The notes beneath the pieces are model-generated. The model was not told the origin of the DNA and did not search any database. It saw only the letters and a list, made by a program, of their open reading frames with translations. Of a stretch of DNA of 64,000 nucleotides, positions 5,078 to 59,240 are shown in pieces; the first letter of the stretch is position 1; each line of letters opens with the position of its first letter. The position numbers and the translations under genes are program-made. Source of the DNA: a virus; the IMG/VR virus record IMGVR_UViG_3300027906_000009, positions 1 through 64,000 of that record; one strand, given 5' to 3'.

Positions 5078-8000
5078 TTAATCGTCAAATTCAGCACCAG
5101 TGCTTGTGATTATGAAATCAACTGCGATGAACTCTATTGACCTTGCAGGCTTCAAGAATATCTTAGCGTACATAATATTTCTGTCTACTAAATCTGGGGT
5201 TGTTGTGCTCTCGTCTAATATAACTTTAAAGTCAGACAACCCAAATCTAACCTTTACATCTTCTAACAATGGAACTACTTGTCCAGTAAACCGAGACCAA
5301 GTCGATGGAACGTTTTGGTCGAAAAGAAGATTGCTACAAATTCTTGAAACTTCTTTTTTGATGAAAATTAGAAGCCTTCTAACATTAATCCTGTCAAGAG
5401 CGGACTGTGTAGATTGGAGAGTCTTCTGTCCAAAAACTACGATTCCCTCGGAAACAAAAGATGCGATCGGATTTATGTTTGCTTCATATAGGGTGTCCCT
5501 ATCTTTAGACATAAGCTGTTCCGAGGTCTGCAAGACCGGCAACCCTGCGTTTCCTTGATTGAGCCCACCTCGATTGAAGCCGGCTGGGGCGAACCATACA
5601 GCATCTCTCTGTTCTGTATATGCCATAACACCCAAAGCAATAACTGATGGTGGTACCCAAACGTCTCTTGACGATCTGGTATCTCTTATCTTCAACCAAG
5701 GATAATAAGTTGTCCCATAAGAAGAATTAATTTGTCTTTTCACTAAAGCTGCAGCGGATAACTCAGGTGTAGTGCCGTCGACTCTATCCTTAAAGTTCGT
5801 ACACTTTCTTTGAGAAGGTGGAACATATACATCTGGAAGGTCGATAATAGCTAATGAGTCTGCTCTTGCTTCGCATGTATTGACTAACTTTGTAGTCAAG
5901 GATGTGTTTGTTATTCCTGGCATCGCTGCTAAATTGTGTTCTACTACTTCTGCATCCCTTATTAATTCTATTGCCCTGTCGACCGAAGCATATGCATAAG
6001 AGGTTGCTGATGTTTTACCTTGTAGCACATCATTATTGAAAGGATTTGCTTCAGTAATGTTTGTTCCATCGAAGCCGCCCAAGAGAGGCATATGAAAGCC
6101 CTTGATTATGTTTAATAGTGGCCTTAAAGAGCCCCCGTCATTGTCAGCTAACACTGCAGAATATGAAGTGCCTCCGCCATCCACAAAACCTGTTCCTGTA
6201 ACTGTCGCTCCAGTAAAGTTAGTTGCATTGATAGAAGTTTGGCCTGCAATGCCGACAACGTCCTGGGTCAGAGTTAATACTGGACCTACAGCCAAAGCGG
6301 TGAGCGCTTGATCTGTTTGTGCGTTAATAACTGTGGCCAACCTATTAACAAAAGCATTCAAGTCGGCAAGTGCGGCGCGGCCGACTCTAAAGCGGCCGCT
6401 GCTATCTTTACTACCATCGGAATGGTTCTGGCCGGCGACAACTATATATGTTCCGGAGACCAAATTTGCATCCGTCAAGATCAATGTGTCATCTCCATCT
6501 GGAATCGCTGTAAAAGTTATTACTGCCGTAGCGTTTCGGCCAGTCTTGGAGCCGCGTTTCCAAACAATATCACCAACATCTGAATTTCTACTTATATTTA
6601 AAACTGTTGTTCCCGCGTCCTGGGCCTGTTGGCTTAAACTCACAACCACTTCATCCATTGAAAATGCCCAAGAATGTTCTGATAGGGAACCATCCGCGAC
6701 ACCATCGTCTTGGTCTGTAGCTAAGCCATTTAACTCTGACATTCTTCGAGTATGATCAACATACCCTTCATTTATTTGTTCTGTTGTTGTCCACTCACCT
6801 AGGCGAGCGCCACTCTTGCGTGAGAGCAAGTATGGCGTTGCTCCAAGATAAAATTGATCGTTCAAGGATCCACTACAAACGGATGGGAATTCAGGCCACT
6901 GGAAATTAATTGAACCAGAAGAAGATTGTGAAAGATGAATTTTGCCTTGCAAAAAGCCTCCGGCAGCGTTGACACCAGAAGCTGTAGATCCGTTGACAGA
7001 AGCTGATGCTTTCTTAGGTTGTACTGGACCGAAGAAACCAAACGGTATCAAAGATTTATTAGGTAATCCATTCGACTGGATATCTGCATCAAGTTGAACT
7101 CTTATATATTCTGAAATATTTGGATTCGATTCTCTTAATTTGTTTCTTTTTTCACCTGAATGCCATTCAAAATACTGGTCCCCTATTGCTTTTGCGATAA
7201 AGTTGTCGGATTTAGGATTAAGATTACACCTATCAAACCTTTCTACTTCTACTAACCTACCGGTGCCGTATTCTATTCTTTTAACAACAACACTAAACTC
7301 GCCGTATGGGTCGAGTGCACCTTCGCGGGCAACTTTTATATCTTCTATTCCAACTATTACGTTTCTTGAAGCTTCAGAGCCCTCTTGTAACGCCACTAAT
7401 CTAAATAATTTTGTATTGTTTGTTGCATCAAATACACCCGCGTTTCTTGATGTATCTTGGGCTATAACCCAACCAGTACGACCTTCGCCGAGTTGGTGTT
7501 TCGGCCCTCTGTGCCCCTCCATGCCAGAGGCTAGTTTCATTATGACGGCTGTTCTTTTAACACCAGAGGAGCCTGACATTCTAGCAGTTAACTTAGATGC
7601 AGTTTCCTCGAACGTTTCTCCTAGCCAATACTTACTTGCTAGTGAGGCTGCAGTTGGATTTGCAATGTTGTCGTTTGACATGACAGGATTCGTGTTAAAC
7701 TCTTCTCTCATTTCTTCTAGCGATGAAACAACATCTTTCGTTGTTGAACCATCAGTTAACTGAAACGTTACTCGGTTCTGAGAACTGAAATGCACAGGGG
7801 TTCCTGGGTTTGCAGTTATTATATTTGACCCTGATGTATTTTGACCTCTTAGTTTAACGCTGAATGATCCCGTTGTTCCATAAAAAATTGCTGCAAGGTC
7901 TGCGGTTTGGGCCGATGGTGGTGTTGCTGAACCTGAATGTGTAAAAACGAATAAACCGTATGCATTACTAGCGGCCCAGCCGGCTTCTGAATTTGGGACT

Positions 8001-8347
8001 GAGGCTGATGCTTCTTCTCCCGAGATACCTGCTAACCTCACCACTGTTATTGGTGAATCAATATTGGCTGACAAATAAGCCTTTGCTGCGTATGGTAAAT
8101 AGCTTTCTCCAAGTAAATCAGTACCATCTCGCCAAGGATCTCGTCCTTCATTTCCAGGCATCGGCAATCCGAATACTCTATTAAATTCATCCTGTGTTTG
8201 TACTTTATAAGGTTTTAGGGATGGACCCTGCCTTGTGCGCCCAATTAACACTGGACCAACACCCGGGCCCTGGCCTGGAAGTTGTGATAAATCTATTTCT
8301 TTTAAAAATACTCCAGGGGAAACAAATCTGAATTTTCTTGTAGCCAT
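5078..8347 (-). CDS. Contractile tail sheath protein (T4 gp18-like), enlarged by insertions
   Basis: FVSPGVFLKEID N-terminus; YYPW, WFAPAGFNRG, RDTLYEANINPI, GQKTL, DRINVRRLL, IEFIAVDF. Start placed at the ATG at 8347, which has an AAGGAG RBS. Confidence 0.95.
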   Translation of the reverse strand: MATRKFRFVSPGVFLKEIDLSQLPGQGPGVGPVLIGRTRQGPSLKPYKVQTQDEFNRVFGLPMPGNEGRDPWRDGTDLLGESYLPYAAKAYLSANIDSPITVVRLAGISGEEASASVPNSEAGWAASNAYGLFVFTHSGSATPPSAQTADLAAIFYGTTGSFSVKLRGQNTSGSNIITANPGTPVHFSSQNRVTFQLTDGSTTKDVVSSLEEMREEFNTNPVMSNDNIANPTAASLASKYWLGETFEETASKLTARMSGSSGVKRTAVIMKLASGMEGHRGPKHQLGEGRTGWVIAQDTSRNAGVFDATNNTKLFRLVALQEGSEASRNVIVGIEDIKVAREGALDPYGEFSVVVKRIEYGTGRLVEVERFDRCNLNPKSDNFIAKAIGDQYFEWHSGEKRNKLRESNPNISEYIRVQLDADIQSNGLPNKSLIPFGFFGPVQPKKASASVNGSTASGVNAAGGFLQGKIHLSQSSSGSINFQWPEFPSVCSGSLNDQFYLGATPYLLSRKSGARLGEWTTTEQINEGYVDHTRRMSELNGLATDQDDGVADGSLSEHSWAFSMDEVVVSLSQQAQDAGTTVLNISRNSDVGDIVWKRGSKTGRNATAVITFTAIPDGDDTLILTDANLVSGTYIVVAGQNHSDGSKDSSGRFRVGRAALADLNAFVNRLATVINAQTDQALTALAVGPVLTLTQDVVGIAGQTSINATNFTGATVTGTGFVDGGGTSYSAVLADNDGGSLRPLLNIIKGFHMPLLGGFDGTNITEANPFNNDVLQGKTSATSYAYASVDRAIELIRDAEVVEHNLAAMPGITNTSLTTKLVNTCEARADSLAIIDLPDVYVPPSQRKCTNFKDRVDGTTPELSAAALVKRQINSSYGTTYYPWLKIRDTRSSRDVWVPPSVIALGVMAYTEQRDAVWFAPAGFNRGGLNQGNAGLPVLQTSEQLMSKDRDTLYEANINPIASFVSEGIVVFGQKTLQSTQSALDRINVRRLLIFIKKEVSRICSNLLFDQNVPSTWSRFTGQVVPLLEDVKVRFGLSDFKVILDESTTTPDLVDRNIMYAKIFLKPARSIEFIAVDFIITSTGAEFDD

Positions 8348-8424
8348 GCTTAACATCTCCTTATGAGGATAAAATAATTGTTATTTTACTTATTAAATAG
8401 TTTTTCTTTCTTGCAATGGAAAGA

Positions 8425-8456
8425 AGAAAAAGAAAAGCCCGCCAAAAAGGCGGGCT
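8425..8456 (-). terminator. Rho-independent terminator after the fibre gene
   Basis: AGCCCGCC-TTTTT-GGCGGGCT 8-bp stem followed by TTTCTTTTT on the - strand. Confidence 0.85.
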
Positions 8457-8493
8457 GAGGTGGGAAATATGATAGGATTTGAAAGTTATTTCA

Positions 8494-12159: not shown

Positions 12160-12325
12160 AATATTATTTCCTCCTATGTTTTTTAAATATTTTGGAAGAC
12201 TATAATAAAATTATAAAATTATAAAATTGAATGATTATTAAAAATTATTTAATGTAAGGTTATATTATAAAAATGGCGCTTAAAGGATCTAACTGGACTG
12301 GCATTATAAATAGCAATCTGAAGAT

Positions 12326-12538: not shown

Positions 12539-12593
12539 ATTATTCTCAATCCTGTTTTACTTTTATATGTACAACTAAATAGTAATCTATTTG

Positions 12594-12968: not shown

Positions 12969-13014
12969 ATTTGCTTCTCCTTTGCTTGTTTATGTGATTT
13001 TAATTGTGTTATTA

Positions 13015-14352: not shown

Positions 14353-15978
14353 TTACCCTACAAAGATATAATTTGGAACCTTCTCGAGTACTTTTTCAGT
14401 ATTTTCGAGCATATTCGCATCTTGCTCAGCCATCTTTGTATATGTAAGCTGAGCTAGAGTTTCTTTCAGTTCATCTCTAAGTTTATTTTGCTCTTCTTTT
14501 GCTTCTGATAGCAATGCAGTGCCATTTAGTGTTACTGCTTCTCCTGGAATCGGAACTGAACTGAACTTAGAACGAACTTGTCCCAGCGTTTCTTTGCATA
14601 ATGCTAGTGCAAACCGGCGGATCCACTGCTTTCCTATAGAATTTATGTTTTCATATGGCAAATTCCCAATAGGTAGCGTATTCATGTTATTAACACCGTC
14701 TACTGATTTGTCATCTTCACTCTCCCAGACGTCTTCGGGTATTGAGAATTCAACCCACATCTTGCGGGGACCACCTGTATAAGGTATCGGACTAAGCCTT
14801 ATCTTGTTATTTCTCAATTCATAAGAAAAGTGCGACATTCTAGTGTATATCGCATCTTCGAAAGCCATTGCTTGTGCTTTGTTCTGCCAAGCCGGTATTA
14901 ACTGAAAGGTTGAATCATCAGAAAACTGTCCATAATTGTGTAGATTCCCAACAACGTTTAATCCACCATAATAACCAAAGAATCTCCACATTGCATGCGG
15001 AGTTTTATAATACACTTTCTTTATTAATATTTTTCTGCCGGCAATATCCTTAGAAGTGTAGGGATAAGTAATACCTCCAGAGAAATTTGACTTACTCATT
15101 CCTGCGTCGCCGGCGTCTGTCAAAGTTATATCCGTGTTTCCAGTAGACCCAGGAGTAACTTGTGTGATAGTTACCACGGAACCACTAGCAGAAGCTTTGA
15201 TTTTAGTGTTTAGATCTAAGACAGTGGCCAAATTTGTTGCTGCTGCCTCTTTTGATCCACCAAGTATAAACGTAACATTGTTTTTATCAGTTGTATCACT
15301 TGAAGCTGCTACCTTTGCAACAATCTCCGTTTTATCTGCGGCAATAATTTTAATTTGATCATCATTTGCAAGTTTTGCTATATCTGTTATTGTAACCGAA
15401 CCTGTTGCAACAATTTGGCTTTGTGACGTTATAATTTGTTGTAGGTCGTACTCTTGTTGCGGAGGGTTTACATCAAATGACGCAGAATATTGCACGGAAC
15501 TGTTTAAGCCAATCTCTGAAGCTAGACCCTCTCCTACTCGTCGGGCCATGCTGTAGTCGAACTTTGGATATTTTAAGGCCACATGGGAGCCTGACAGGCT
15601 TCCACTTAAAGAACCACTCATCAGAACACCCTTTGAGTCAAAGGATCCTGTAGTGTTGCCAAGAGCGTCTGATAGCACATTTGTTGCTTGGTGTAAATTA
15701 ACTATATATGAATACTCAAGCACTGCTTCCTCGTACGCAGCATAAACATTTCCTTGTGTTATTTCTAAATCTAAAATATCTCCCCCAAGTTTCTTATAAA
15801 CATAGGAAACTTGATCCACAGCACCCGAAAGAAACTGACTAGAGTATAAAGAAGAATTTTCATCTGAATAAATTTTATATGGCACAGATTGATTAACCAA
15901 ACTGTTTTGGTCTGAACCTGTCATTGGTAGCACAATTGCTGATAATGTGCTTTTTGGTGTCAATGTAGGTTTGTACAT
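14353..15978 (-). CDS. Head-tail adaptor / neck protein (gp13-like) carrying an inserted domain
   Basis: KKLGGDILDLEI, EEAVLEY, QWIRRFALALCKETLGQVRSKF, LNGTALL, C-terminal IFVG. Confidence 0.75.
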   Translation of the reverse strand: MYKPTLTPKSTLSAIVLPMTGSDQNSLVNQSVPYKIYSDENSSLYSSQFLSGAVDQVSYVYKKLGGDILDLEITQGNVYAAYEEAVLEYSYIVNLHQATNVLSDALGNTTGSFDSKGVLMSGSLSGSLSGSHVALKYPKFDYSMARRVGEGLASEIGLNSSVQYSASFDVNPPQQEYDLQQIITSQSQIVATGSVTITDIAKLANDDQIKIIAADKTEIVAKVAASSDTTDKNNVTFILGGSKEAAATNLATVLDLNTKIKASASGSVVTITQVTPGSTGNTDITLTDAGDAGMSKSNFSGGITYPYTSKDIAGRKILIKKVYYKTPHAMWRFFGYYGGLNVVGNLHNYGQFSDDSTFQLIPAWQNKAQAMAFEDAIYTRMSHFSYELRNNKIRLSPIPYTGGPRKMWVEFSIPEDVWESEDDKSVDGVNNMNTLPIGNLPYENINSIGKQWIRRFALALCKETLGQVRSKFSSVPIPGEAVTLNGTALLSEAKEEQNKLRDELKETLAQLTYTKMAEQDANMLENTEKVLEKVPNYIFVG

Positions 15979-16038
15979 TATTAGCCCTCACTAAGTATAG
16001 TTCAATACTATAACTAGTTATTGAGCCAAGCATTTAAC

Positions 16039-16332
16039 CTAGGCATCTGCTTTTGTTTTGGTGGTTCGCCTTTTGCGAGTTGTGGAGGTTGTTTTTTTCT
16101 TAGTGGAAGTTGTTGTTTTTTTCGCAGGAGTTCGCTTTTTTCTAGTGGTCTTTGGCTTTTCTTCCACTTCGGTCACTACTTCTTCTATTACTTCATCTTT
16201 AGGGGTCTCGGCCACCTCTTCAACTTTGTTGGTGGTGACCAAGCCCAAAAGATTTGCAAATTTAGCTTCCCATTTTTTCTTTATTTTTCCGAATCTCTTA
16301 AATTCTAAAAATATTTTCTTTTTCTTGCCCAT
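16039..16332 (-). CDS. Small protein with a Lys/Thr/Arg-rich histone-H1-like tail
   Basis: MGKKKK N-terminus, acidic middle, KPKTTRKKRTPAKKTTTSTKKK tail; AAGGA RBS. Confidence 0.65.
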   Translation of the reverse strand: MGKKKKIFLEFKRFGKIKKKWEAKFANLLGLVTTNKVEEVAETPKDEVIEEVVTEVEEKPKTTRKKRTPAKKTTTSTKKKTTSTTRKRRTTKTKADA

Positions 16333-16348
16333 TATTTATCCTTTCTTA

Positions 16349-17359: not shown

Positions 17360-17394
17360 TTTAATGGATCCTCCTTCAATAGGGTTATACAATA

Positions 17395-17402
17395 TAAATA
17401 GT
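17395..17402 (-). promoter_or_regulatory. Representative copy of the recurrent ACTATTTA motif (candidate late promoter)
   Basis: The same or a near-identical motif occurs upstream of at least 11 genes (see findings). Confidence 0.6.
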
Positions 17403-17420
17403 GTTACGTTTTACCAATAG

Positions 17421-17454
17421 AAAAAGAAAAGCCCCGCCAACTTAATGACGGGGC
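17421..17454 (-). terminator. Rho-independent terminator after the major capsid gene
   Basis: GCCCCGTC-ATTAAGTT-GGCGGGGC followed by TTTTCTTTTT on the - strand. Confidence 0.85.
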
Positions 17455-17486
17455 CCAACTTTAATCTATTTCTAGATTGTCAATCC

Positions 17487-19307: not shown

Positions 19308-19328
19308 AATAAAATCACCTCCTTTTCT

Positions 19329-49200: not shown

Positions 49201-52200
49201 CATCACTACATCATTATTAGTAATATAAACCCTCATTTTGTAGACAACTCCATTGTTTAATAGTGGACTAACTGGTTGTGATATAGCAGTCTGTAATTTT
49301 TCATCTTCTAAGAAAAATTTAACTGTTTCCGAAGCAAAATTACCAATTGCGCTCTTATACGGTAACATTGAGTTTACAAAACCTTGATATGTACTAGAAA
49401 AATTTATTGCGTTATTTGTGATAGTTTTTTGCCTATTCAAGGTGCCAAATGTAGGAGGATACTCATTAACCTTTAAATATTCCCTTGTGCCATAAAAAAT
49501 ACTGGCGCTTGGGTGTGGTTCATTATCAGGAACTATCTGGTTGTATAGCCTCTCGGGATATAAAAGATCATCAAAATTTACTCTCCTGGATGTTTCCCCT
49601 TTTAATCTTGGTATACCTGAATCAACAGTATTATTTATCAGAGAGCCCGTATAGCAAACACTTGATCCCAAACTCGCTCCATCAAAATTTCCAATAGGTA
49701 TATAAACTTTACTGTTGACCAAATAATTTTCAAAAGCTCCGTCAGTCGAGGAAAATAGAGGATAATCAACTGCAAGGCCAGATTTAATAGAATTAAATAA
49801 AACACCTGGTGCTAGGAGCGGCTTTGAAACTTTAGATTTTGTATTCTCTATCTTCAAATCTAACAGAGCCAGTGCAGTACCCTCTGTTATTTGTGTGTTA
49901 GATATATAACTGGCGTTATAAGAGCCTGATTTTAAATAATTTCTGTGGAAAATTTCTGATACTTGGACTGCACGTTCTGCAGGATACATTCCCCTATATG
50001 GCAAAAATCTTTTTGCTGCAGAGCATTTTAGTGTTAATTTGCCAGCGAATAAATCTACATTTTGATTATCTAAATTTTCCTGAAATGGTTGAAAATATTT
50101 CATAAAATCAGAAGTAGAATATGTTTTAAAAAATTGAGTCCCTATCGATATATCACCCGATGATGAGTGATAAATCGCTCCTGTCAAATGTAAAAAGTCG
50201 TCTGTAATGGTAGGATTATCCAAATCCGAAGAAGCATATATATCTTCTATATATTTACTTATTGTAAATTCTGGTATTATAGAATAGTTTTGACCTACAA
50301 GTCTAATTTCTTCTGCATATTTGTCGTAAGAATCGTAAAACGGTCCGATTTTGTTGCTTGAGGTTGCTTCCCACAATGATTCTCCTGCCAAGAATTCGTC
50401 GGATCCGAAAATTTGCGGGATTCTTCTGTTATAGATAGGTGCAAATGGGGGGGCGCCTCGCAAGAAATTATTTCCAAGTGGAAAAATACTATAATCATTT
50501 TGTAAAATTCCTTCGTTTCTTGTAGCCTGATCTCGATTGTTCGAGAATTGGGTCCCATCATTAAAGAAAGATGATGTAATGCTGATTGGTTTAGTAGAGA
50601 AATCACTTCTAGAATCCAAAACCCATTTACTTGTTTTAATCATGGACCTACTATTTTCAGAAGCAAACGGATTATAAGTCATCTTATGGCTCATGAGGTC
50701 GACCATTTCATAGGTTCCAAAATAATCTTTTTGAAACTCTTTGTGGTTAATTATTTGGGTTGGCTGTAAAAATAACTTTTGATCATAAGCTGATTGGCTT
50801 ACTAAATAATCTGAATAATTTAAATTTCCTGTTAAAGCTAGAGATCTGTTTGCAAGTTTAGAGTCCCATCCAAAAAACTTAAATTTTTCTCTAGTTCTTG
50901 CATTTTTTGTATATGTATTTATTTCTCTTGGATATATCGTTTCTAAATAATTTAGTTCTGTTTTGTTATATTGTCCCCTGATTAGGTCTAATCTACCTAT
51001 CGTGTTATTTAGTATTTTTAAATTTTCGTGATCTAAAAATGGCTCTTCTTCAAACCTTATCAGGTCTGACATCTCTTGATTTGCGAATCCTGTAATGTTA
51101 TTTTGTAATGGCAAACTAAGTGTGAAACTTGGCATTAATTGTATATTTTCTCGAGATGAAGCCCTGTACGCTTCTAGTACAATCTCATGAAAAAACTGGT
51201 CGAAATTCCACATCGACTCAAGTTGACGCTGGTTTAAGTTCCTAGCTTGATTGTCTCCTAGAAACCCAAACAACTGGCCGGATTCATAAGTATGTATACT
51301 TAAACTAAGCGGCTTGTATTTTGAAGTGGCCATAACTTCTTTAAAGTTAGTAATGCTCCTAGGCTTTGCAAAAGTTCGATTGTCTTCTTCTGTCCTGGAG
51401 TAATCAAATTGATACCCCTGCCTGTGTGATGTAAATGGCACCTTTGATGTGAACACCGCTGAAAATATATTGTTTTTCTTGTGAGCCCTGGATATGGCGT
51501 GCTGGGATCCTCTTATTTGTTTCCACGATGGCCAGCCGTATGGGCCTTGGCGGTTTAATATTATAGAATTTAATGTTGATGCATCCCCAAAGAAACCAGA
51601 TGCTGTTCGAATTGAATTTTCCGGGTTACCGCGGTGCATAGTATCAGGATTAATAAGGTTATTTACAAAATCTTGTTTGGTACCAGTAAAAATCTGATCC
51701 GTGCCGAGTGTGTTTGTATTTATAGACAAGGGTTCCAAAACAATTGTATTTAAATTCACAAAGTCAACAGGCGTGAACGTGCCGGCTGTGAATGAAGCAT
51801 CCTCTGCGCCGTAAATTTGTGTTGCACCTCCGAAGGTGCCGGCGCCGAGTTCACTAGATGCCAAAAAAGTTATACTTGACTCTGATTTTATACCGGCAGC
51901 ATGCTCATAGGTGTGTTGATGTCCTGAATTGCCATTAAGTCTTGTAAAGTTCAACGGCAGGAGCGCAGAAGCGGTGATCCACAGGTATCCAATATCAGTT
52001 TGAGGTATCTCATGTTGTACGAATAAATTATCTGGCTTGTAATAAATATCTCCCGTCATGCTCGGACTCAATGGGCCGGACATAAACCTTCTATAATTTC
52101 TATTAGTTTTATGTATTGACGCTTGAGTTGTAGAACCCGAACGGTACCCAAACCGTTCAGAATATTCTGAAGATAAATTATTAAGAACCCCTCTAACCAG

Positions 52201-55200
52201 AGTGTTTCTGTAATTTATTGTACTGTATACTGAAAATTCCTCTGCTTCTCTATCCAAACCATACTTTCCGGATGTTTCGGGGCCGCCCGGTGGGGAAAAT
52301 CTATTTACGAAAACATGTTCTCTTCTTGTTCTATCTGGTACGAAATGGTTTACTGTGCCTATTATATATTCTGATTTATTAAGAGATCCTGTTAAATTTT
52401 TACCTTCTTGTTCTACTAAATAATTATTATTATTTGTTCTGCCGGCTGTTTGCACTATTTCATAATCTTTGTGATAATTTCCTTGCTTAATTGGGTCTGT
52501 GGAAGCTTTTATGTTGGCCATGCTATAAAGTCTACTAGATTCTATAGGACTATGAAACATGGTACTATACCTATCTGAAGTTTCGATAGTAAGTGAACTG
52601 GTAGTTTCTGATATTTTATATGCTTCGATTCTTTCTAAAGTTTGCCCTATTTTGTTTTTTCTGTGAGGGGGCCTAACATCAAGAAAATCAGGCTTATTTA
52701 TTTTTAGCGAATCTCCCATAAAGTGGTTATTCGTTATTTTTAATTGTGTTTTAAACTTGCTAAAGTCTGTGCCGACTGAAGAACTGTATAAAGAAAAAGG
52801 TAATACAAAGTCTGCATCTGCATTATTATAATCCTGAATGCCAGAAACATTAGTTTTTGATGTATATCTTTCTTTTTGAATTGGTCTCGTGATGTCATCG
52901 CATTGTTTAAACTCATATATATCATCTGATGATATTGTTATATTTGTGTTATTTTGATATATTATCTTGTAGAGATCTTCAACTTTATTGGTGTCTTTAT
53001 TATGCCCTATATTTAAAATCTTCTGCTTTGTAATTGTGTGTTTGTAGGGCCTAACTAGGTTTCTTAAAGCGTACTTTCTAAAATTGTTTCCTGGGTATGA
53101 ATTTGAGATTTTAGTGGTCAATGTATCTTTAATCTCTTTTCTCCCTGTGCTGGTGGGTACCTCTTTTCTATCCTTTTGCCATAAACAATTTTTATTTTCC
53201 TGTTGGTCGTGATGGCCATGCTCCCAATCATATAGCAGTTCATTTATTGACAACATATTAGTTTCAAGTTTTGGTGGCTTAGTATCTATTATCGCGTATT
53301 TATGGTGATATTTATTTCTTTCAAGTGCATGACTTTCAACTACATTGTGCATGCCTGTGTTGTAAATTGTCGATGCGGCCAGTGTATGCTCCACAAGATT
53401 TCCAAACGAGGCGCCTATCCATTTATAATAATTAACAAATTTTTCAAAACTAATCTCATTCTGTACATTTTCAAAATATTTTTCTTTCAAATATTGCAAT
53501 AATTTATAATTTGCTCGATATCTGTTAACTGGTTCACCTATAGCGTTATTAAGCAATTCAACTCCAGAAAAGAAACTTATCATATCTTTAGAAATCACCT
53601 CATACATGCTTTTTTCAAAAGATAGAATATTTGTTTCTGGAGTTAAAGAAAAATCAAATTTATCTACTGGGTTTTCTTTTAACTGTACTTGGTCTAAACC
53701 CTTAATGCTTGCTAATGGAGTATTTTTAATTTGGTTTATGTAATCCACATACACTATATCTGTCAACTTATTGTCAAAACCATGAGATTTAAAATCATAA
53801 TTGGTCGACAGGTCAGAATCATATATTGGAGATGTAATATCTTGTCCGGATGTTTCATCCTCAATAGTGAAATTTGCCGTGTTATTATTAGAAACTTTAC
53901 TAAAATTTATTCTAAAAAGTTTTGTGTTTTCTGATTTTATAGTTTGATCTGTGTTAATTTGTTTTGGTCTTAATTTTTGTCTTCCCCTGTGAGTGAAAGT
54001 CTTACTTCTTAATTGCAATTCTTCGTCTGTTAATTGATCCTTCCAAGCACTAAAATTGAGTATTCTTATATCGGTCTTATCTATAACTGAACCTGTAATG
54101 TTAGTCTTATTTGCTCCAATAAAAATAGTTTTATTCGCAGAGTTAAACAGATTGTAATTTGCCCTAGACAATTCTGATGTCAATGAAAAACTATCCATCA
54201 ATTTATCATCAATATAGTTGTATCCTGAAAATATAATTTCATATTTTTCAGTTCCGTGATCAATGAGTGGGCTGCTTGTCTTCTTTCTTATTCTTAGTGA
54301 TACGTTCCACCTTGAATCATCGTAGACCTTTTTCAGAAATGGTGTCTTCAAATCTTGTGATAAAAATTTACTAGATTTTAAGACAAAACGCGCTTTGGGA
54401 TCTACAAGATTTTGCTTCTCAACAATCACAGTAAAATTGGCATTGTCCGGCGAAGGTGTTACAAAATTATTTTGTACCCCAGATACCTGTTTTATACCGA
54501 AAACACTAGATGTAGATATTTCGTGCTGAGCTTCGACTCTTTTTGCAAAAATAAATGAGCCTTCAAAAGTATACTCGTTTGGCACAGTTGAAGTCGGTAT
54601 AAAACTTGAGTCGCCGGCTGATGTGTAGAATTGGTGTAAATTTGCGGAGCTATTATCTCGAAAATTTATTATTTGAACTCTTTCTGCCTTTTTTTCAGTC
54701 TTATTGTCTTTAAACGGGATTTCACCGCCCACTAGAGAATAAACATCACTAATAACGTCAGTTGAGACGCCGGCTAATTTATATATTGCAGCATACCCAG
54801 CTTCAGTGCCTTTTTTATTGAATATCGCCCTTCGATAATTTTTAATATTTTGATGTATAGTCCTTGCACTGACTTGCGTTGGTTTAGTATATCTAAGGTG
54901 GCCGGAAATTTGCTCCATCTGGTCTAGTAAGGGCTCCTCTTCCTGCAAAATCATTGATGTCATATCTGTGTCAATACCTTCATCCTCTGCTTGTTCTAGC
55001 GGTAGCCTTCCAGTATTCTGGTTTGATAATCCTGTTTGTATATACTCATCAACACAACCTACAAAGTATTTGTCCCCGTAATCTAAATAATTTTCGTCAT
55101 AGGATCCTGTAGTGTTTGTTCCCGCTTGAATCACACCGTCCCAATTGGGGCCTCTAGAGCGAAGAGTAGCATCGAGTTTATTTCTTACTTCATCAAATTG

Positions 55201-56646
55201 CACTGCCATCATTTGCAGGAGTATTTGAAATTCTCGCTTACTTTCACTGTCTTGTTCAACAAAATCCTGGCGCGCCCATTCCGGTATAAATCTTTCTAAA
55301 TTATTATTGTTCAACCTATCGTAAGCTTCTCCAATCTTTCTGGTTTTTGATATTAGTTTTTGAACTGTCTGATCTGAATTTTCTAATATCGGAGTCTGGA
55401 CTTCTGTATTTTTTGTTGCTTGTGATTGATTGATCGCTGATTCTGGTATTAGAGTATTTTCATCATATTCTCTTATTCTTCCTGTTATTTCGTTTCCAGA
55501 ATAATCAAAAACCAAACTATCTTTTTTTGTCTTGCCAATTGGTGGCTTATTGAAATTGTAATATAGGCCCATTCTAGACGTATATTCCTTATTAGAAAAA
55601 TCATTTGCAAACACTTTTTTATCAAAGTAGCGGCCGATTTCTCTATTGTTCCTAAGTCCCTTCCAATATTTGAAGTCGTCCAAAGAACCCGAAAACGAAC
55701 CGGGTGATGAGGTTGCAGTATTATCTTTTCCTATTTTTCCACAAATATAGGATTTTACTTCTGGCATTTCTCCTATTCCAGACTGCGTTACAGTCTGGTT
55801 TATCTGGCCATCTACATAAAGTTTAAATTTTAAATTATTATTTATTTTAATAGCAGAGACAGCATAATGGTGCCACTTGCCATCACCGACACTAGCAGTA
55901 GTAATTGGCTGTACTGGGTCTGCAGGGTCTCCTATTTGAATGTCTGTAGAGCCGGTTGTTGCCGTTGTATATGTGACGCGGAATGGTGAGCCGGCGGAGG
56001 CCGACAAATGAAGCTTAAACTTAGCTTGATTTTCTGGTTGAGTACTTCCTGGTAATGTACCAATATCAAAGACAACTTCTTGTTGTTTTGAAGCATTAAA
56101 CCCATCCTTTTTCATCCAAAACTCTACAGTATTTCCCTTTGAAGGACTTAATAAAACCCCTGGTTCGTCATTGCTAAGTTGTCCCAAGAATTCAATTTGG
56201 GGTATTTTTCCCGCTCCTCCATTAAATTCTATGTACTGTTTGTAATTAAATCTAACGCTGCCGACTGCGCCTGGCCATTTTTGATTGAAAAGAGCAGTAT
56301 CTAGACTTGGTGAGGTCATATACCAATCATAGTGTTCCTCTTGGGTGCCATCAAAGGGATAGTAATTAATTATGTTGTATATTGCATCTACATAATATTG
56401 TTGCGCGCTGCCATAAAACGCAAAAGTAGAAGGATCAAAAGAATTGATTGGTGGTCGAAAAGCATCCATAAAAGATTGTTGCTTTGATATCAGCGAATCT
56501 GATTCTGCCTCATTTGATAATTTATTATTTTTCTGATTTAGGTGGGCCCTATTTGATCTTTTAAAATACTCTTCTTTTCTTTTATCCGCGGCAGTAGCTA
56601 TAGTAATTTCCTGGCTATTTCCGTCTTTGCTGCTAAAATCTGTCAT
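46288..56646 (-). CDS. Giant baseplate/fibre protein (3452 aa) with LamG/ConA-like domain(s)
   Basis: TVEFWMK...DGKWHHYAV...LYVDG...FSGSLDDFKYW LamG signature; VESHALERNKY; C-terminal IYLNGVLQ...DY module. Confidence 0.8.
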   Translation of the reverse strand: MTDFSSKDGNSQEITIATAADKRKEEYFKRSNRAHLNQKNNKLSNEAESDSLISKQQSFMDAFRPPINSFDPSTFAFYGSAQQYYVDAIYNIINYYPFDGTQEEHYDWYMTSPSLDTALFNQKWPGAVGSVRFNYKQYIEFNGGAGKIPQIEFLGQLSNDEPGVLLSPSKGNTVEFWMKKDGFNASKQQEVVFDIGTLPGSTQPENQAKFKLHLSASAGSPFRVTYTTATTGSTDIQIGDPADPVQPITTASVGDGKWHHYAVSAIKINNNLKFKLYVDGQINQTVTQSGIGEMPEVKSYICGKIGKDNTATSSPGSFSGSLDDFKYWKGLRNNREIGRYFDKKVFANDFSNKEYTSRMGLYYNFNKPPIGKTKKDSLVFDYSGNEITGRIREYDENTLIPESAINQSQATKNTEVQTPILENSDQTVQKLISKTRKIGEAYDRLNNNNLERFIPEWARQDFVEQDSESKREFQILLQMMAVQFDEVRNKLDATLRSRGPNWDGVIQAGTNTTGSYDENYLDYGDKYFVGCVDEYIQTGLSNQNTGRLPLEQAEDEGIDTDMTSMILQEEEPLLDQMEQISGHLRYTKPTQVSARTIHQNIKNYRRAIFNKKGTEAGYAAIYKLAGVSTDVISDVYSLVGGEIPFKDNKTEKKAERVQIINFRDNSSANLHQFYTSAGDSSFIPTSTVPNEYTFEGSFIFAKRVEAQHEISTSSVFGIKQVSGVQNNFVTPSPDNANFTVIVEKQNLVDPKARFVLKSSKFLSQDLKTPFLKKVYDDSRWNVSLRIRKKTSSPLIDHGTEKYEIIFSGYNYIDDKLMDSFSLTSELSRANYNLFNSANKTIFIGANKTNITGSVIDKTDIRILNFSAWKDQLTDEELQLRSKTFTHRGRQKLRPKQINTDQTIKSENTKLFRINFSKVSNNNTANFTIEDETSGQDITSPIYDSDLSTNYDFKSHGFDNKLTDIVYVDYINQIKNTPLASIKGLDQVQLKENPVDKFDFSLTPETNILSFEKSMYEVISKDMISFFSGVELLNNAIGEPVNRYRANYKLLQYLKEKYFENVQNEISFEKFVNYYKWIGASFGNLVEHTLAASTIYNTGMHNVVESHALERNKYHHKYAIIDTKPPKLETNMLSINELLYDWEHGHHDQQENKNCLWQKDRKEVPTSTGRKEIKDTLTTKISNSYPGNNFRKYALRNLVRPYKHTITKQKILNIGHNKDTNKVEDLYKIIYQNNTNITISSDDIYEFKQCDDITRPIQKERYTSKTNVSGIQDYNNADADFVLPFSLYSSSVGTDFSKFKTQLKITNNHFMGDSLKINKPDFLDVRPPHRKNKIGQTLERIEAYKISETTSSLTIETSDRYSTMFHSPIESSRLYSMANIKASTDPIKQGNYHKDYEIVQTAGRTNNNNYLVEQEGKNLTGSLNKSEYIIGTVNHFVPDRTRREHVFVNRFSPPGGPETSGKYGLDREAEEFSVYSTINYRNTLVRGVLNNLSSEYSERFGYRSGSTTQASIHKTNRNYRRFMSGPLSPSMTGDIYYKPDNLFVQHEIPQTDIGYLWITASALLPLNFTRLNGNSGHQHTYEHAAGIKSESSITFLASSELGAGTFGGATQIYGAEDASFTAGTFTPVDFVNLNTIVLEPLSINTNTLGTDQIFTGTKQDFVNNLINPDTMHRGNPENSIRTASGFFGDASTLNSIILNRQGPYGWPSWKQIRGSQHAISRAHKKNNIFSAVFTSKVPFTSHRQGYQFDYSRTEEDNRTFAKPRSITNFKEVMATSKYKPLSLSIHTYESGQLFGFLGDNQARNLNQRQLESMWNFDQFFHEIVLEAYRASSRENIQLMPSFTLSLPLQNNITGFANQEMSDLIRFEEEPFLDHENLKILNNTIGRLDLIRGQYNKTELNYLETIYPREINTYTKNARTREKFKFFGWDSKLANRSLALTGNLNYSDYLVSQSAYDQKLFLQPTQIINHKEFQKDYFGTYEMVDLMSHKMTYNPFASENSRSMIKTSKWVLDSRSDFSTKPISITSSFFNDGTQFSNNRDQATRNEGILQNDYSIFPLGNNFLRGAPPFAPIYNRRIPQIFGSDEFLAGESLWEATSSNKIGPFYDSYDKYAEEIRLVGQNYSIIPEFTISKYIEDIYASSDLDNPTITDDFLHLTGAIYHSSSGDISIGTQFFKTYSTSDFMKYFQPFQENLDNQNVDLFAGKLTLKCSAAKRFLPYRGMYPAERAVQVSEIFHRNYLKSGSYNASYISNTQITEGTALALLDLKIENTKSKVSKPLLAPGVLFNSIKSGLAVDYPLFSSTDGAFENYLVNSKVYIPIGNFDGASLGSSVCYTGSLINNTVDSGIPRLKGETSRRVNFDDLLYPERLYNQIVPDNEPHPSASIFYGTREYLKVNEYPPTFGTLNRQKTITNNAINFSSTYQGFVNSMLPYKSAIGNFASETVKFFLEDEKLQTAISQPVSPLLNNGVVYKMRVYITNNDVVMYDRHSAFGPPVDESTPEIATYTPETTTVPGTPASGSLDMSVPSSLSGNDPDWRNALNNNTVTLQSTNSQTKTYKFVLDTAAVAATATIEIATAVSKASDLNGATFTLKDAQSSPTEKTYIFVHDTFSTSGQTDSSGRVKIQVFGMSTGMHSVIAQAETVIESTNGHNNTINVSNDGSRKLTLTQATAGTAGNNAIATNFSAGLSIAGFSNGTSGTTFGTGNTDSSGNILVALGSYSSGNTPDQIGTSLATAIGHANGHQNLITANYSTSTDIITLTQVESGDAGNTTISGTGGQFGTTDSTNRKTGFAGGASVLPSKVDFLTETKAATSGSHGFLPYVPPYLDPNTDPYAEISFTPSETRRYTIPEIINGMSVTYTNMQSPNNASTNTNFKESMVVSASLNLTRYVSLAADNYNFQGSPGKTTSSQQDGPANYRWVIHPRWETPVMDFSNNKVSALNLTTNQVDQVSGSPWKTRNQTNYYQEFNSSSTPYLTASRGMWHQYGEKLPTNEGKGYYLTILGARDDGKTSVGDLASAVGFVRDTYNYAYSVPQEANPSRKYKLGRLASKKRVCEAVVAIPYYLEDECELRFFDMDPSSLAESRNYNSFKKQQFLDALRLSSNDQETELVEESYESFYENPGILAQENIAYQLRMMDKYVFPPQFDFIKNDDVDPFVSYIFQFKAEIGQEDLSHLWQNLYPESGKSISVAQHSRVLQSEIDTDVEYISSIVLPDVDNLFKGKGSIYKNPELFLEKEVRWLVFKVKYRAESDYVNVIKDSISKNREDILDLSGAQELGGKTVQSTIRRDREIFSKYSYNWPYDFFSIIEMIKIDSKVDYFSRDIQEAPEPIAPQFELSLLDDIQNKIKLSPKALDNIQTGQSEVDATKFLALDNMIFRHQMKASGAAAPSGNAITVNPGTGFRIKSGTESIYLNGVLQTSGTGNDYTISGNTVTFVDSIGTSDAISVTYIKEKES

Positions 56647-59240
56647 TATTCCACTCTAAACCTAAATTTTTCATTTAAAATTGATTTTTGATCGCCATGA
56701 ATACAACAAAAAGAGATTTCATAAAGGTACCTTTGTTGTAAATAACTAGTGTCTAAAAGAAAGTTACAACCCCGTTCGTTATACCCAAGTCCAGAAAAAT
56801 TTACTGCACTCCCGGTTGAAAATGGCACAATCACTAAATCATCTGCAACTCTTTTTATTTGGTAATATACGTTATCGAAATAATCAGGTGATGCATATCC
56901 TGTTACTTTTGAATATACATTAGGATTACTTAGTTTATTTTTTATAGTTACATTTAATTGAGACTTTTCTCCTGATTTGTAGCTTGGTTTCAAATTTTGT
57001 ATAGATGCAATCTTGTCTATATTCACGCTTTCGCCAGAATATATATCTCTATATGATTTAACCTTAACAGGAGAATTACCACCAAAACCTCTTATATTGC
57101 CGGTATTCGAATCTAATGCTTTGGAATTACTTCCTGTTGGTATAGTCCATTTCTCATACAATGTGTCTTGAGCTATATTGTTTGATATGATGAAAGATGC
57201 TTTATAGACTCCCGTCGATTGTTTAACGCAAGTGACGTCAACTCCTGAAACTGCTTCTGAAGAGTTTCCTCTAAAATTTCTTTTTATTATTTGCAAGTCT
57301 AAGGCCGCTTTAGGAAGAGGCCATTTTACGTCAGGATCCGAATCAAATACTGATCCACTTAGTGGTAAAGATTTTAAATAAGTTATAATGTCACCACCAT
57401 TAGTGGGATCTGTTTTAGTGGTTAATGTGTCGTGTGTGTTCGATGCATTGAAAGATCCAAAATCGCCAAAGAATTTTGGAGGCTGCAGTGATGTAGTTAT
57501 GGGATTTCCCGATGCATCTGCAGTTCGGTGTAACGTAACAGAAGAATTCCAGCCATGATTGTTACCCCCTACAACTCGAGTATAAATTCTGATTTTATTG
57601 AAGCCATAATTGATTGCCCGGAAAAGATTCGAGAACCCTGGATGTCTGTTCATTGTCTCAACTAAACTTTCCGCCGTCTTAACAATATTTTCCATACCAT
57701 CAGGAGAATATGCCGGATATGCCTGGGGGTGTCGTTGGATATGCCTCATTGCTCTTGCTCTACTTGCAAAGTTACGCTGTTTCAAGCCGATGGGATAAAA
57801 ATAAAAAGAAGTAGTTTCCAGCGTTAAGGGATTATAGTAAGATACTATGACTATACCAGAACCAGTATTTTGACTATTACCTCCAGTTGCCTGATCGTAT
57901 GCTGATGTCTCTAAAAGAGTTAGCATCTCGAATTCAGCATAAGCATTTTTTAAATCATCAGCCTCACTGTTGGATGTTGTATATACCGTATTATCTAGTA
58001 CTATTGAGACGTGTTCTGACAAGCCTTTATCTGTCGTCAATGCAAATTTTGGAATTGATGGTAGGTCCACTAGTTTCCCATTTATATAATTGTGATAGTA
58101 AAGGTTGTTTGTGTTTTGTGCATTTGTAAGCTTAGGGTCAGCAGTAACAAGTTTTCCTCTATCATCAGTAATCCTAGAATCCCACTGTGCCTCTATTACG
58201 GGCCTCTGGAAATAATATTCCGATTCTCTTGCCGAAAACTTCTTTGTGAAATATGATTTTTTTAAACTTCCGTCTTCGAAAGATCCAGAAAGCTTAATTA
58301 AAAAGCCATTGTTTTGAATCCCTGCGCCGCCTGAAAAGTTAACAACAACAGATGCCATATTTTTTGTTATTGTCGTGTTTCCGTAATACCCTTTATGCTT
58401 CTGGGTTATATTTACCTTTAATGGGTCGCTTCCATCAATTGCTCCGGAAAATATAGTGTTGAATGCTGAACTATCGAATAAACCTTTAAATTTTCCCACC
58501 ACTGTTGATATATTGTTACTACTAACATCTAACAAATGTGTTTTGTCAGTTGATCCAGAAGTGTTAGCAGTTTGTACTATTCTGTAGTCGCCATTAGTGG
58601 CGCGGAATTTCAGTGTTTCACCAACGGGTGGCACGGTACCAAATTTTACAGATCCGGATGCTGCAGAAAAATAAGAGCTTTCTTGTGATTTGATATACTC
58701 TTCAATTATTGGCGTCACATTGATGCTCAAATCTTCTAAACCGGTATCGAAAGTTTGATTAAATTCTACTGGAATTGTAGCGCTATTCATCTCTTGTTTT
58801 ATAGGTATCGATGCGCCTTCGGTCGCCCAAGAGAGGCCGGTATCTCTATATTGCCAGTTACAAGTGTCCAAGTCCGAAAACTCTTCCATATCTAAGCCTA
58901 ATCCCTCCCTCCAAGATTCAAGAATCGGAATGGCTGAAATGGTAAAATTTTTAGGTATTGTATTCCCATGTTTTACATTAAACAAATTTAAATTAAATTG
59001 AACTGAAGATGATGCTGGTATCAAGTTTGAGGTTCTATTTGCGGTTATTTCAGTTATAGGAAATTGTACTAAAATTCTGGTTTTTTCTATTGATGAAGTA
59101 GTGGCTTGACCATAGACAGAATAAATTTCTAGAACGTCAGATGCGCCCATGTTCGATAATTTACCAGTCTGGGACATACCGCTTTTGAATGCTGTTGTGA
59201 TAGTGTTATCTTTATTTGCTGTGTATCTTTTTATGGCCAT
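56646..59240 (-). CDS. Baseplate-associated virion protein (DNRLRE-like N-terminus) with inserted domains
   Basis: KDNTI...TRILVQF...W.EG.G...NNGFLIK...KKFSARES...PVIEAQWD; directly downstream of the gp6-like gene. Confidence 0.65.
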   Translation of the reverse strand: MAIKRYTANKDNTITTAFKSGMSQTGKLSNMGASDVLEIYSVYGQATTSSIEKTRILVQFPITEITANRTSNLIPASSSVQFNLNLFNVKHGNTIPKNFTISAIPILESWREGLGLDMEEFSDLDTCNWQYRDTGLSWATEGASIPIKQEMNSATIPVEFNQTFDTGLEDLSINVTPIIEEYIKSQESSYFSAASGSVKFGTVPPVGETLKFRATNGDYRIVQTANTSGSTDKTHLLDVSSNNISTVVGKFKGLFDSSAFNTIFSGAIDGSDPLKVNITQKHKGYYGNTTITKNMASVVVNFSGGAGIQNNGFLIKLSGSFEDGSLKKSYFTKKFSARESEYYFQRPVIEAQWDSRITDDRGKLVTADPKLTNAQNTNNLYYHNYINGKLVDLPSIPKFALTTDKGLSEHVSIVLDNTVYTTSNSEADDLKNAYAEFEMLTLLETSAYDQATGGNSQNTGSGIVIVSYYNPLTLETTSFYFYPIGLKQRNFASRARAMRHIQRHPQAYPAYSPDGMENIVKTAESLVETMNRHPGFSNLFRAINYGFNKIRIYTRVVGGNNHGWNSSVTLHRTADASGNPITTSLQPPKFFGDFGSFNASNTHDTLTTKTDPTNGGDIITYLKSLPLSGSVFDSDPDVKWPLPKAALDLQIIKRNFRGNSSEAVSGVDVTCVKQSTGVYKASFIISNNIAQDTLYEKWTIPTGSNSKALDSNTGNIRGFGGNSPVKVKSYRDIYSGESVNIDKIASIQNLKPSYKSGEKSQLNVTIKNKLSNPNVYSKVTGYASPDYFDNVYYQIKRVADDLVIVPFSTGSAVNFSGLGYNERGCNFLLDTSYLQQRYLYEISFCCIHGDQKSILNEKFRFRVE

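What the first reader, a model, noticed from the sequence alone, without database searches (positions are those of the whole stretch)
6173..58664. A mobile ~110-130-aa domain inserted in frame into at least five unrelated virion proteins
Seen in sequence: one module with consensus A[TS][GA][ST][VIL]...T[LIF]x[LI]...(DSSG)...L...I...[LV]T[LI]TQxxxGxxGN[TN]xI...F(S/A/I)GG recurs in five genes. These are the tail sheath (~6173-6532; ATAVITF..VLTLTQDVVGIAGQTSI..GFVDG), the gp13-like neck protein (~15073-15408; ATGSVTI..VVTITQVTPGSTGNTDI..NFSGG), the 481-aa baseplate protein (~36986-37372; ASATLS..MTITQKHSGAAGNTAI..AFIGG), the 3452-aa protein (two copies, 48271-49104) and the 864-aa protein (~58326-58664; ASGSVKF..VNITQKHKGYYGNTTI..NFSGG). 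Internal evidence for insertion: the 394-aa paralog reads GRLIQTSGSTSGQTVGTILYNQG where the 481-aa protein reads GILKAT[insert]VDAGSVGLIYYQAG. The copies are diverged, so the spread is old or selected. Inference: a compact domain with adjacent N- and C-termini that plugs into surface loops and is displayed on neck, sheath and baseplate. It could be a virion-wide adhesion/decoration system or a selfish in-frame element. The L..VIN helix loosely recalls the flagellin/hook 'IN' motif.
Basis: partly seen in the sequence, partly recalled or inferred. Interest (0 to 1): 0.85.

Follow-up and report, generated by a model that had tools for sequence, protein, structure and literature searches.

The report
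Shuffled plug-in domain on phage virion proteins
An uncultured T4-like phage carries six copies of one small self-folding surface domain spliced in frame into five different tail, neck and baseplate-region proteins; related phages gain, lose, move and swap it, so it is a new, uncatalogued example of the known phage habit of shuffling decoration domains.

Summary
One 99-135-residue module occurs six times in five minus-strand virion genes: sheath, gp13-like neck protein, 481-aa protein, 3452-aa protein (two copies, one inside the other) and 864-aa protein. Leave-one-out profiles recover every copy. An AlphaFold model is very confident (pLDDT 96).

The fold is a beta-barrel with one helix. It matches the outer insertion domain of simple phage sheaths, the T7-type nozzle-tip domain, and flagellin D2 and FliD D3 domains. 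No Pfam, PHROG or PDB sequence family covers it.

Orthologues in IMG/VR show clean presence or absence:
- Neck: 6 of 27 orthologues carry it at one site.
- 481-aa protein: 3 of 80 carry it.
- Sheath: at least four different sites.

Copies resemble copies in other host genes more than copies at the same site. Duplicates end exactly at the domain edges. In one close pair of relatives, the domain is saturated at synonymous sites while its flanks are not, which indicates cassette replacement.

It is a recombination-shuffled accessory domain, not a selfish element. Its function, adhesion or bracing, is only inferred. This scan has already reported the same family on other genomes. Verdict: new member of a known kind, moderate interest.

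The parts
5078..8356 (-). Tail sheath gene (1092 aa), host protein 1
   Evidence: PHROG 23 tail sheath at E 1e-62 and Pfam Phage_sheath_1C over the C-terminal core, residues 731-1090. The N- and C-terminal cores align with the Microcystis phage Mel-JY01 sheath.
6179..6541 (-). Domain copy in the sheath (protein residues ~606-726), 'site A'
   Evidence: Database-derived profile E 3.9e-18; leave-one-out E 5.8e-5. The L023 orthologue is 64% identical and has a clean ~109-residue gap exactly here.
14353..15978 (-). gp13-like neck protein gene (541 aa), host protein 2
   Evidence: phmmer to solved gp13 neck proteins at E 5e-7; PHROG 211 head-tail adaptor Ad2 at E 1.4e-10.
15073..15423 (-). Domain copy in the neck protein (residues ~186-302)
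   Evidence: Profile E 1.1e-30. AlphaFold pLDDT 96.4, pTM 0.89. 21 of 27 orthologues lack it and have a 2-4-residue junction.
36524..37969 (-). 481-aa protein gene in the baseplate-region gene block, host protein 3. The function is inferred from position only.
   Evidence: No Pfam, PHROG or PDB sequence match. It lies in the block with a gp6-like baseplate wedge gene at 59240-61066.
36986..37390 (-). Domain copy in the 481-aa protein (residues ~194-328)
   Evidence: Profile E 7.9e-14. Only 3 of 80 orthologues carry a copy, at the same site; the rest are mostly 340-380 aa.
46288..56646 (-). 3452-aa giant virion-block protein gene, host protein 4
   Evidence: ORF list. No Pfam or PHROG family. 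Orthologues of 3431-3894 aa in related contigs carry 1-4 copies at other positions.
48568..48972 (-). Inner, complete domain copy in the giant protein (residues ~2559-2693)
48973..49104 (-). N-terminal piece of the outer, interrupted copy (residues ~2515-2558)
   Evidence: Aligns to profile positions 25-44 at 11.6 bits (E 0.0035), exactly the part missing from the C piece. Predicted as three strands with pLDDT 67-86.
48271..48567 (-). C-terminal piece of the outer copy (residues ~2694-2792)
   Evidence: Profile E 1.1e-10 over positions 36-126. The spliced N+C form aligns continuously over positions 25-126. Fold matches span model residues 1..278 with only 88-101 aligned residues to single FliD D3 or flagellin domains.
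56646..59240 (-). 864-aa protein gene, host protein 5
   Evidence: ORF list; no family match. Orthologues of 615-747 aa occur in five related contigs.
58326..58670 (-). Domain copy in the 864-aa protein (residues ~191-305)
   Evidence: Profile E 2.4e-12; leave-one-out E 4.8e-7. All five orthologues examined carry a copy at this site.

Best explanation
The repeated segment is an autonomous, self-folding accessory domain of about 115 residues, a beta-barrel closed by one helix. Its N- and C-terminal strands emerge side by side, so it can sit in a surface loop of another protein without disturbing that protein's fold.

In this lineage of uncultured T4-like myophages the domain is copied, lost, moved and exchanged among virion genes by in-frame recombination. 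The unit of exchange is exactly the domain. As a result it now sits in:
- the outer variable part of the sheath;
- one loop of the gp13-like neck protein;
- one loop of the 481-aa protein;
- the 864-aa protein;
- the 3452-aa protein, twice, with one copy inside a loop of the other.

Shown here: homology of the copies, the fold, insertion at discrete sites, polymorphism among orthologues, relatedness of copies across host genes, and cassette replacement in one pair of relatives.

Inferred, not shown:
- The domain faces outwards on the virion.
- It works as a decoration, either weak adhesion to host surface polymers or lateral bracing between subunits. Structurally similar outer domains of sheaths, nozzles, flagellins and FliD are all surface-exposed.
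- Short conserved edge motifs serve as recombination junctions (A-A/T-A-T...I-T at the start, F-x-G-G at the end).
For: - Homology: leave-one-out profiles recover each copy. A profile search of 1.84 billion representatives finds 229 clusters at E<1e-3, with 1-6 copies at varied positions. A profile built from those hits alone returns the six window copies at E 1e-30 to 1e-10.
- Host proteins elsewhere are phage tail parts: sheath, nozzle, tail collar, tail fibre, Tail_P2_I and LamG.
- Fold: pLDDT 96.4, pTM 0.89.
- Insertion: 21 of 27 neck orthologues lack the segment and have a 2-4-residue junction. 77 of 80 orthologues of the 481-aa protein lack it. The L023 sheath is 64% identical and has a clean gap. 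The sheath has at least four sites: A, B, C1 and C2.
- Repeated gain or loss: the neck flank tree needs at least 4 changes.
- Exchange among host genes:
  - The window neck copy is 50% identical to the copy in the 481-aa-type protein of G006. It is only 28% identical to G006's neck copy, although the neck flanks are 80% identical.
  - In G008, copies in two different proteins are 70% identical. Two copies in the G006 giant protein are 73% identical. In both pairs the similarity starts and stops at the domain edges.
- Cassette replacement: in L065 versus L066 sheaths the domain has pS 0.82 and pN 0.30, against pS 0.37 and pN 0.04 in the flanks.
- Nesting: profile split in the window and in the G006 orthologue, and the 278-residue model.
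Against: - No experiment or structure of this virion exists, so outward display and any binding or bracing role are inferred from analogues only.
- The synonymous-site evidence for cassette replacement comes from one pair of relatives. Every comparison involving the window itself is saturated.
- All five examined orthologues of the 864-aa protein carry the copy. At that site it could simply be ancestral.
- Presence counts are lower bounds. L038 and L035 carry degenerate copies that the profile missed.
- The nested reading rests on an 11.6-bit N piece and on alignment ranges, not on inspected coordinates.
Confidence: 0.82

Rival explanations
1. The domain's main job is internal to the virion. 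It would be a protein-protein docking or bracing module that links neighbouring sheath, neck and baseplate subunits or anchors fibres or whiskers, not a host-surface adhesin. This rival concerns function only. It accepts the same anatomy and mobility.
For: - The best structural analogues are assembly parts, namely sheath insertion domains and the T7-type nozzle tip.
- Evseev et al. (PMC9230969) discuss additional sheath domains as possible cement between subunits.
- The invariant T-Q...G..G-N-T..I...F.GG motif is compatible with a conserved contact or a structural turn.
Against: - Most natural orthologues of the neck and 481-aa proteins do without it, so it is not needed for assembly.
- Copies at the same site are only 24-44% identical between relatives while the flanks are 44-80% identical. 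That is unexpected for a fixed partner interface.
- Tandem and nested arrays look like stalks rather than specific docks.
Confidence: 0.3
2. The segment is an ancestral part of each host protein that has been deleted repeatedly. Under this view nothing was ever inserted or moved.
For: - All five examined orthologues of the 864-aa protein have it.
- Presence or absence at a single site, taken alone, cannot give direction.
Against: - Sheath orthologues have at least four different sites.
- The deepest-branching neck orthologues lack it.
- Copies in different host proteins are 50-70% identical, and the similarity ends at the domain edges.
- In L065/L066 the domain has far deeper synonymous divergence than its flanks.
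- One copy lies inside another.
Confidence: 0.04
3. It is a selfish in-frame genetic element, intein-like or linked to a homing endonuclease, that propagates for its own sake. A related alternative is that its variability is produced by a diversity-generating retroelement.
For: Sporadic distribution, and insertion at conserved sites of conserved genes.
Against: - The segment is about 115 residues and folds into a stable barrel that stays in the protein.
- It starts with Ala-Ala/Thr and ends with Gly-Gly. It lacks the Cys/Ser start and the His-Asn end of inteins.
- No Hint or endonuclease Pfam hit.
- No reverse transcriptase in the 91-kb contig, although the contig is only 48% complete.
- Divergence is spread over the whole domain, not confined to adenine-templated positions.
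Confidence: 0.03
4. The similarity is a compositional artefact of Thr/Ser/Ala/Gly-rich surface loops, not homology.
For: - Pairwise BLAST E-values between window copies are weak, 1e-5 to 0.7.
- HMMER reports high bias scores.
Against: - Leave-one-out profiles give full-length matches well separated from all other ORFs.
- Invariant T-Q, G, G-N, I, F and G-G columns.
- 229 database clusters.
- A confident common fold.
Confidence: 0.01

Closest known systems
Insertion domain of simple ('type 2') contractile-tail sheaths: InD of Vibrio phage XM1 gp6, D3 of PhiTE, and the outer domain of the A-1(L), Milano, 7-7-1, Mu and E217 sheaths
   Same: - It is likewise a single-segment insertion into a host domain, placed on the outside of the sheath (PMC10457771; PMC11972413).
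   Different: - No detectable sequence relationship.
- In those phages it is a fixed part of one protein. Here one sequence family is spread over five virion proteins, varies in site and number between close relatives, forms tandem and nested arrays, and carries a strongly conserved T-Q...G..G-N-T..I...F-x-G-G motif.
Promiscuous Ig-like domains on phage structural proteins (Fraser et al. 2006, as cited in PMC9230969)
   Same: The behaviour is the same. A small accessory domain is added to many unrelated virion proteins (sheath, tail, capsid decoration and baseplate), is exchanged horizontally, is dispensable for assembly, and is proposed to give weak adhesion to cell-surface carbohydrates.
   Different: - The fold is different, a barrel with a helix rather than an Ig sandwich.
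- There are no Big_2, I-set or FN3 Pfam hits in the copies.
- It is usually inserted inside loops rather than appended at termini, and it inserts into itself.
Nozzle-tip domain of T7-like tail tubular protein B (T7 gp12 about 147-280; P-SCSP1u, Kp7, Kp9, E1004)
   Same: - It is described as a beta-barrel with one helix replacing a strand, extruded from a loop of propeller blade 3 and pointing at the host outer membrane (PMC6702177).
- One database protein combines a Phage_nozzle Pfam match with this domain family.
   Different: In T7 it is a conserved, single, functionally fixed part of the nozzle. No sequence similarity to it was detected here.
Outer domains of flagellar proteins: flagellin D2 (P. 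aeruginosa FliC, Vibrio FlaA-D) and FliD D2/D3
   Same: - They are also surface-exposed, hypervariable and dispensable.
- They are inserted so that the chain returns to its starting point, and FliD D3 sits inside D2 as a nested pair.
   Different: - These are cellular filament proteins, and the match is lower than to the phage domains.
- No Flagellin_N, Flagellin_C or Flagellin_IN Pfam hit.
Polyphyletic insertional domains of RNA polymerase (BEAN and HABAS; PMC11515920)
   Same: It is a general precedent for one small domain family found inserted at non-equivalent loops of different proteins (abstract).
   Different: It is an unrelated fold and an unrelated system, with slow, lineage-tracking insertions. 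Only the abstract was read here.

Membership tests
Sheath insertion domain / FliD-D3-like barrel (structural class) | Beta-barrel closed by one helix, matched over the whole domain by solved examples | tested here: met
   [not shown]
Sheath insertion domain / FliD-D3-like barrel (structural class) | Single continuous insertion whose two ends rejoin the host chain at one point | tested here: met
   Orthologues lacking the domain bridge the site with 2-4 residues while the flanks stay conserved.
Sheath insertion domain / FliD-D3-like barrel (structural class) | Sequence-detectable homology to the solved members | tested here: inconclusive
   A profile of the five copies against all PDB sequences gave only chance-level hits at E 0.49 and 1. 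Common ancestry is therefore neither shown nor excluded.
Sheath insertion domain / FliD-D3-like barrel (structural class) | Exposed on the outer surface of the assembled particle | not testable with these tools
   This needs a map or model of the assembled sheath, neck and baseplate. It is inferred only from analogues.
Promiscuous Ig-like phage domains (Big_2, I-set, FN3) | Ig-type beta-sandwich and a match to the Pfam models | tested here: not met
   [not shown]
Inteins / Hint domains | Nucleophile (Cys/Ser/Thr) at the first residue, His-Asn at the end, and a Hint fold | tested here: not met
   Copies begin A-A/T/S and end G-G. There is no Hint Pfam hit, and the fold is a barrel of another kind.
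Flagellin (Flagellin_N, Flagellin_C, Flagellin_IN) | Match to the flagellin D0/D1 helices or to the Flagellin_IN motif model | tested here: not met
   No Pfam hit at E<=10 in the copies. The resemblance is only to the outer D2/D3 domains, at fold level.
DGR variable protein | Reverse transcriptase and a template repeat in the same genome | tested here: inconclusive
   No RVT_1 match in the 91-kb contig, and no DNA repeats between copies. The contig is only 48% complete.

The most novel reading that the evidence does not exclude
The copies may form a virion-wide, population-level surface-diversification system, not passive decoration. Interchangeable allelic domain cassettes would be swapped by recombination at fixed loops of otherwise conserved sheath, neck and baseplate proteins, and stacked by self-insertion. 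Selection would come from variable host surface polymers, or from host defences that recognise conserved virion proteins. This would be the equivalent of tail-fibre mosaicism spread over the whole particle.
Probability: 0.2. Interest if true: 0.7.

Novelty: new member of a known kind. Interest (0 to 1): 0.48.

Why it matters
- Pfam, PHROGs and the PDB sequence set do not catalogue this family. It nevertheless occurs in at least 229 protein clusters and marks the outward-facing, fast-changing parts of many uncultured phage tails.
- A profile for it would improve annotation of giant 'hypothetical' virion proteins. It would also flag permissive loops in sheath, neck and baseplate proteins that tolerate a 115-residue insert, which are useful as display sites in phage engineering.
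- The cassette swapping and self-nesting give a tractable case for studying how phages remodel their surface without touching the assembly core.
- The fold and the general behaviour are already known. This is an extension of existing knowledge, not a new principle.

Tried and rejected
1. The 394-aa versus 481-aa 'paralogue' argument: only the C-terminal ~110 residues align, so it is not usable for the insertion point.
2. The first nesting test used a 4-copy profile. The spliced form scored below the C piece alone. Only the deeper profile supported nesting.
3. Extra copies in the 156-aa ORF (20638-21108; E 2e-3, half a domain), the 340-aa protein and the 608-aa protein: hhalign probabilities were below 1%, so these were rejected.
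4. tblastn of the neck copy against 50,697 phage records gave no match at E<=1e-3. The family is too diverged for single-sequence BLAST.
5. The search for related loci with the 864-aa protein found no relative by peptide patterns. Orthologues were reached through handles instead.
6. ESM Atlas returned only unnamed viral clusters.
7. Synonymous-site tests involving the window were all saturated and uninformative.
The N-C distance and the packing of the outer copy were inferred from orthologue gaps and from alignment ranges.
10. One script call returned no answer and was repeated.

Full report
**Setting.** All long ORFs of the window lie on the minus strand. The window is the first 64 kb of a 91,314-base IMG/VR viral contig that CheckV rates 48% complete. 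Annotation shows a T4-like myophage structural block:
- a sheath with a conserved C-terminal core (Pfam Phage_sheath_1C; PHROG 23 at E 1e-62);
- a gp13-like neck protein (E 5e-7 to solved gp13);
- a gp6-like baseplate wedge N-terminus in the 608-aa protein;
- several giant proteins with no family match.

The nearest cultured sheath is that of Microcystis phage Mel-JY01, which aligns only in the core regions.

**The observation.** Translating the stated coordinates gives the quoted peptides. Pairwise BLAST between copies is weak, at E 1e-5 to 0.7. Even so, each copy's best non-self hits are the other copies. In leave-one-out tests a profile of four copies finds the fifth over its full length, at E 1e-3 to 2.5e-8 among 231 ORFs. 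The next unrelated ORF scores E 0.2-1. A profile of the five copies searched against 1.84 billion representatives gave 229 proteins at E<1e-3 and 21 at E<1e-10. These proteins range from 74 to 3780 aa and carry one to six copies at varied positions, often in tandem. A profile built only from 129 of those database segments returns the six window copies at E 1e-30 to 1e-10 and nothing else convincing. Refined coordinates are in the parts list. The copies share no DNA similarity.

**What the domain is.** Neither Pfam nor PHROGs has a model that covers it: the window copies get no convincing hit in either library. PDB sequences show no match either.

With 69 aligned homologues AlphaFold2 gives pLDDT 96.4 and pTM 0.89 for the neck copy. 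The model has about nine strands and one 12-residue helix. VIA-align on Foldseek's candidates gives whole-domain matches:

|---|---|
| Cyanophage P-SCSP1u nozzle, residues 143-241 | 10.5 |
| T7 gp12, residues 144-250 | 8.5 |
| A-1(L) sheath outer domain, residues 89-186 (rmsd 2.5, 91 aligned) | 9.6 |
| PhiTE sheath outer domain | 9.6 |
| Milano and Mu sheath outer domains | 8.0-8.7 |
| P. aeruginosa flagellin D2 | 7.6 |
| FliD D2-D3 | 6.5-7.4 |

**Is it inserted?** 599 or more IMG/VR loci encode relatives of the sheath, and 80 were fetched.
- **Neck.** Among 27 neck orthologues (E down to 1e-227), six carry the domain at one site. Twenty-one lack it and join the flanks through 2-4 residues. 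This fixes the domain's two ends next to each other.
- **481-aa protein.** Three of 80 orthologues carry it.
- **Sheath, site A.** L023 is 64% identical to the window's sheath and has a clean ~109-residue gap at the copy.
- **Sheath, other sites.** Other sheaths carry the domain at three other places: site B (L026, L059), C1 (L065, L066) and C2 (L061). Many carry none. L038 and L035 hold degenerate copies at B that the profile missed, so the counts are lower bounds.
- **864-aa protein.** All five orthologues examined carry a copy.
- **Giant proteins.** These carry one to four copies at differing positions.
- **A relative with none.** A 192.8-kb relative (G010) shows none at the sensitivity used.

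**Is it mobile?**
- A tree of neck flanks needs at least four gains or losses of the domain.
- A tree of 33 domain copies does not sort by host site. The window's neck copy pairs with a copy in G006's 481-aa-type protein (99/86 support), and the window's inner giant copy pairs with a sheath copy (96/84).
- By BLAST the window neck copy is 50% identical to that G006 copy. It is only 28% identical to G006's own neck copy, although the neck flanks are 80% identical.
- Recent duplicates exist. Two different proteins of G008 share 70%, with up to 87% DNA identity in 10-codon windows. Two copies in G006's giant protein share 73%. In both cases the similarity begins and ends at the domain boundaries.
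- In the close pair L065/L066 the sheath flanks have pN 0.038 and pS 0.37, whereas the domain has pN 0.295 and pS 0.82. Saturated synonymous sites inside otherwise similar genes mean the cassette was replaced, not merely evolving fast. In the same pair the neck copy has pS similar to its flanks and about 2.7-fold higher pN, which fits relaxed purifying selection.
- Comparisons involving the window are saturated everywhere and are uninformative on this point.

**Nesting.** With the deeper profile the 44 residues before the inner copy align to profile positions 25-44 (11.6 bits). The segment after it aligns to positions 36-126. The spliced form aligns continuously. G006's giant orthologue shows the same split, positions 8-60, then 10-126, then 60-119. 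The 278-residue model (pLDDT 81.8, pTM 0.68) predicts strands in the N piece. Several fold matches span model residues 1..278 while aligning only 88-101 residues to a single 100-120-residue FliD D3 or flagellin domain. That is expected if the N and C pieces close one barrel around the inner copy at residues 48-182. I rate nesting as probable, not proven.

**Mechanism and function.** Nothing enzymatic is present. There are no intein termini, no Hint or endonuclease hit, and no reverse transcriptase in the contig. The simplest mechanism is in-frame recombination in a recombination-proficient T4-like phage. It may use the conserved edge motifs as microhomology, with selection keeping only insertions in permissive outer loops. 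This is an inference. All solved analogues are surface-exposed accessory parts. Evseev et al. argue that additional sheath domains lie away from the tube and may aid adhesion or cement the tail (PMC9230969). I favour a decoration role, either weak adhesion or bracing, and cannot separate the two here.

**Comparison and novelty.** The behaviour parallels the promiscuous Ig-like domains of phages (cited). The fold is that of the sheath InD/D3, the nozzle tip and FliD D3. What is new is the sequence family, its spread over five virion proteins in one genome, its self-insertion, and the evidence for cassette swapping.

The scan's own notes show that follow-up agents reached similar conclusions for the same kind of domain on several other genomes. 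I treated those notes as leads only. My results were obtained independently, on this window and its relatives.

**Verdict.** This is a new member of a known kind, of moderate interest.

Noticed in passing
window 8494-12159 (-), 1221-aa protein upstream of the sheath; L011, L017, L018, L033, L034, L049, L050: Orthologues of this neighbouring 1209-1325-aa protein carry a partial copy covering only the C-terminal half of the domain (profile positions ~50-126). The window's own protein shows none. P0010, 1222 aa, has three such half-units in tandem.
   Followed up: partly
database proteins P0007, P0010, P0015, P0021, P0103: Many hits consist of tandem arrays of a shortened unit: helix, then the T-Q...G-N-T strand pair, then F-x-G-G, about 65-100 residues. 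The C-terminal half may therefore be a repeatable sub-module, or the arrays may be nested or strand-swapped in ways the linear profile cannot resolve.
   Followed up: no
window 29750-32848 (-): A single 1032-aa ORF matches both the SbcD-like (residues 1-343) and SbcC-like (285-1027) PHROG families. It is apparently a fused Mre11/Rad50-type nuclease.
   Followed up: no
window 20638-21108 (-), 156-aa ORF in the head-gene block: Weak half-domain match to the database-derived profile (E 2e-3, profile positions 9-72). hhalign does not support it. It is probably a compositional effect.
   Followed up: yes
L038 6503-9877 and L035 7516-10911 (sheath orthologues): These sheaths scored as 'no domain', yet they align across site B with a degenerate copy that keeps the I-T-I-T-Q motif and has lost G-N-T. 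This looks like decay of an inserted copy in place.
   Followed up: partly
G010 (192,821-base relative reached through L090): This large related contig, 71% complete, has a 45%-identical orthologue of the 481-aa protein. It shows no copy of the domain at E<=0.01 with the five-copy profile.
   Followed up: no
window 8001-12000 and 16001-20000: G+C is 0.45-0.46 in these two 4-kb bins, against 0.34-0.42 elsewhere in the window. No cause was examined.
   Followed up: no
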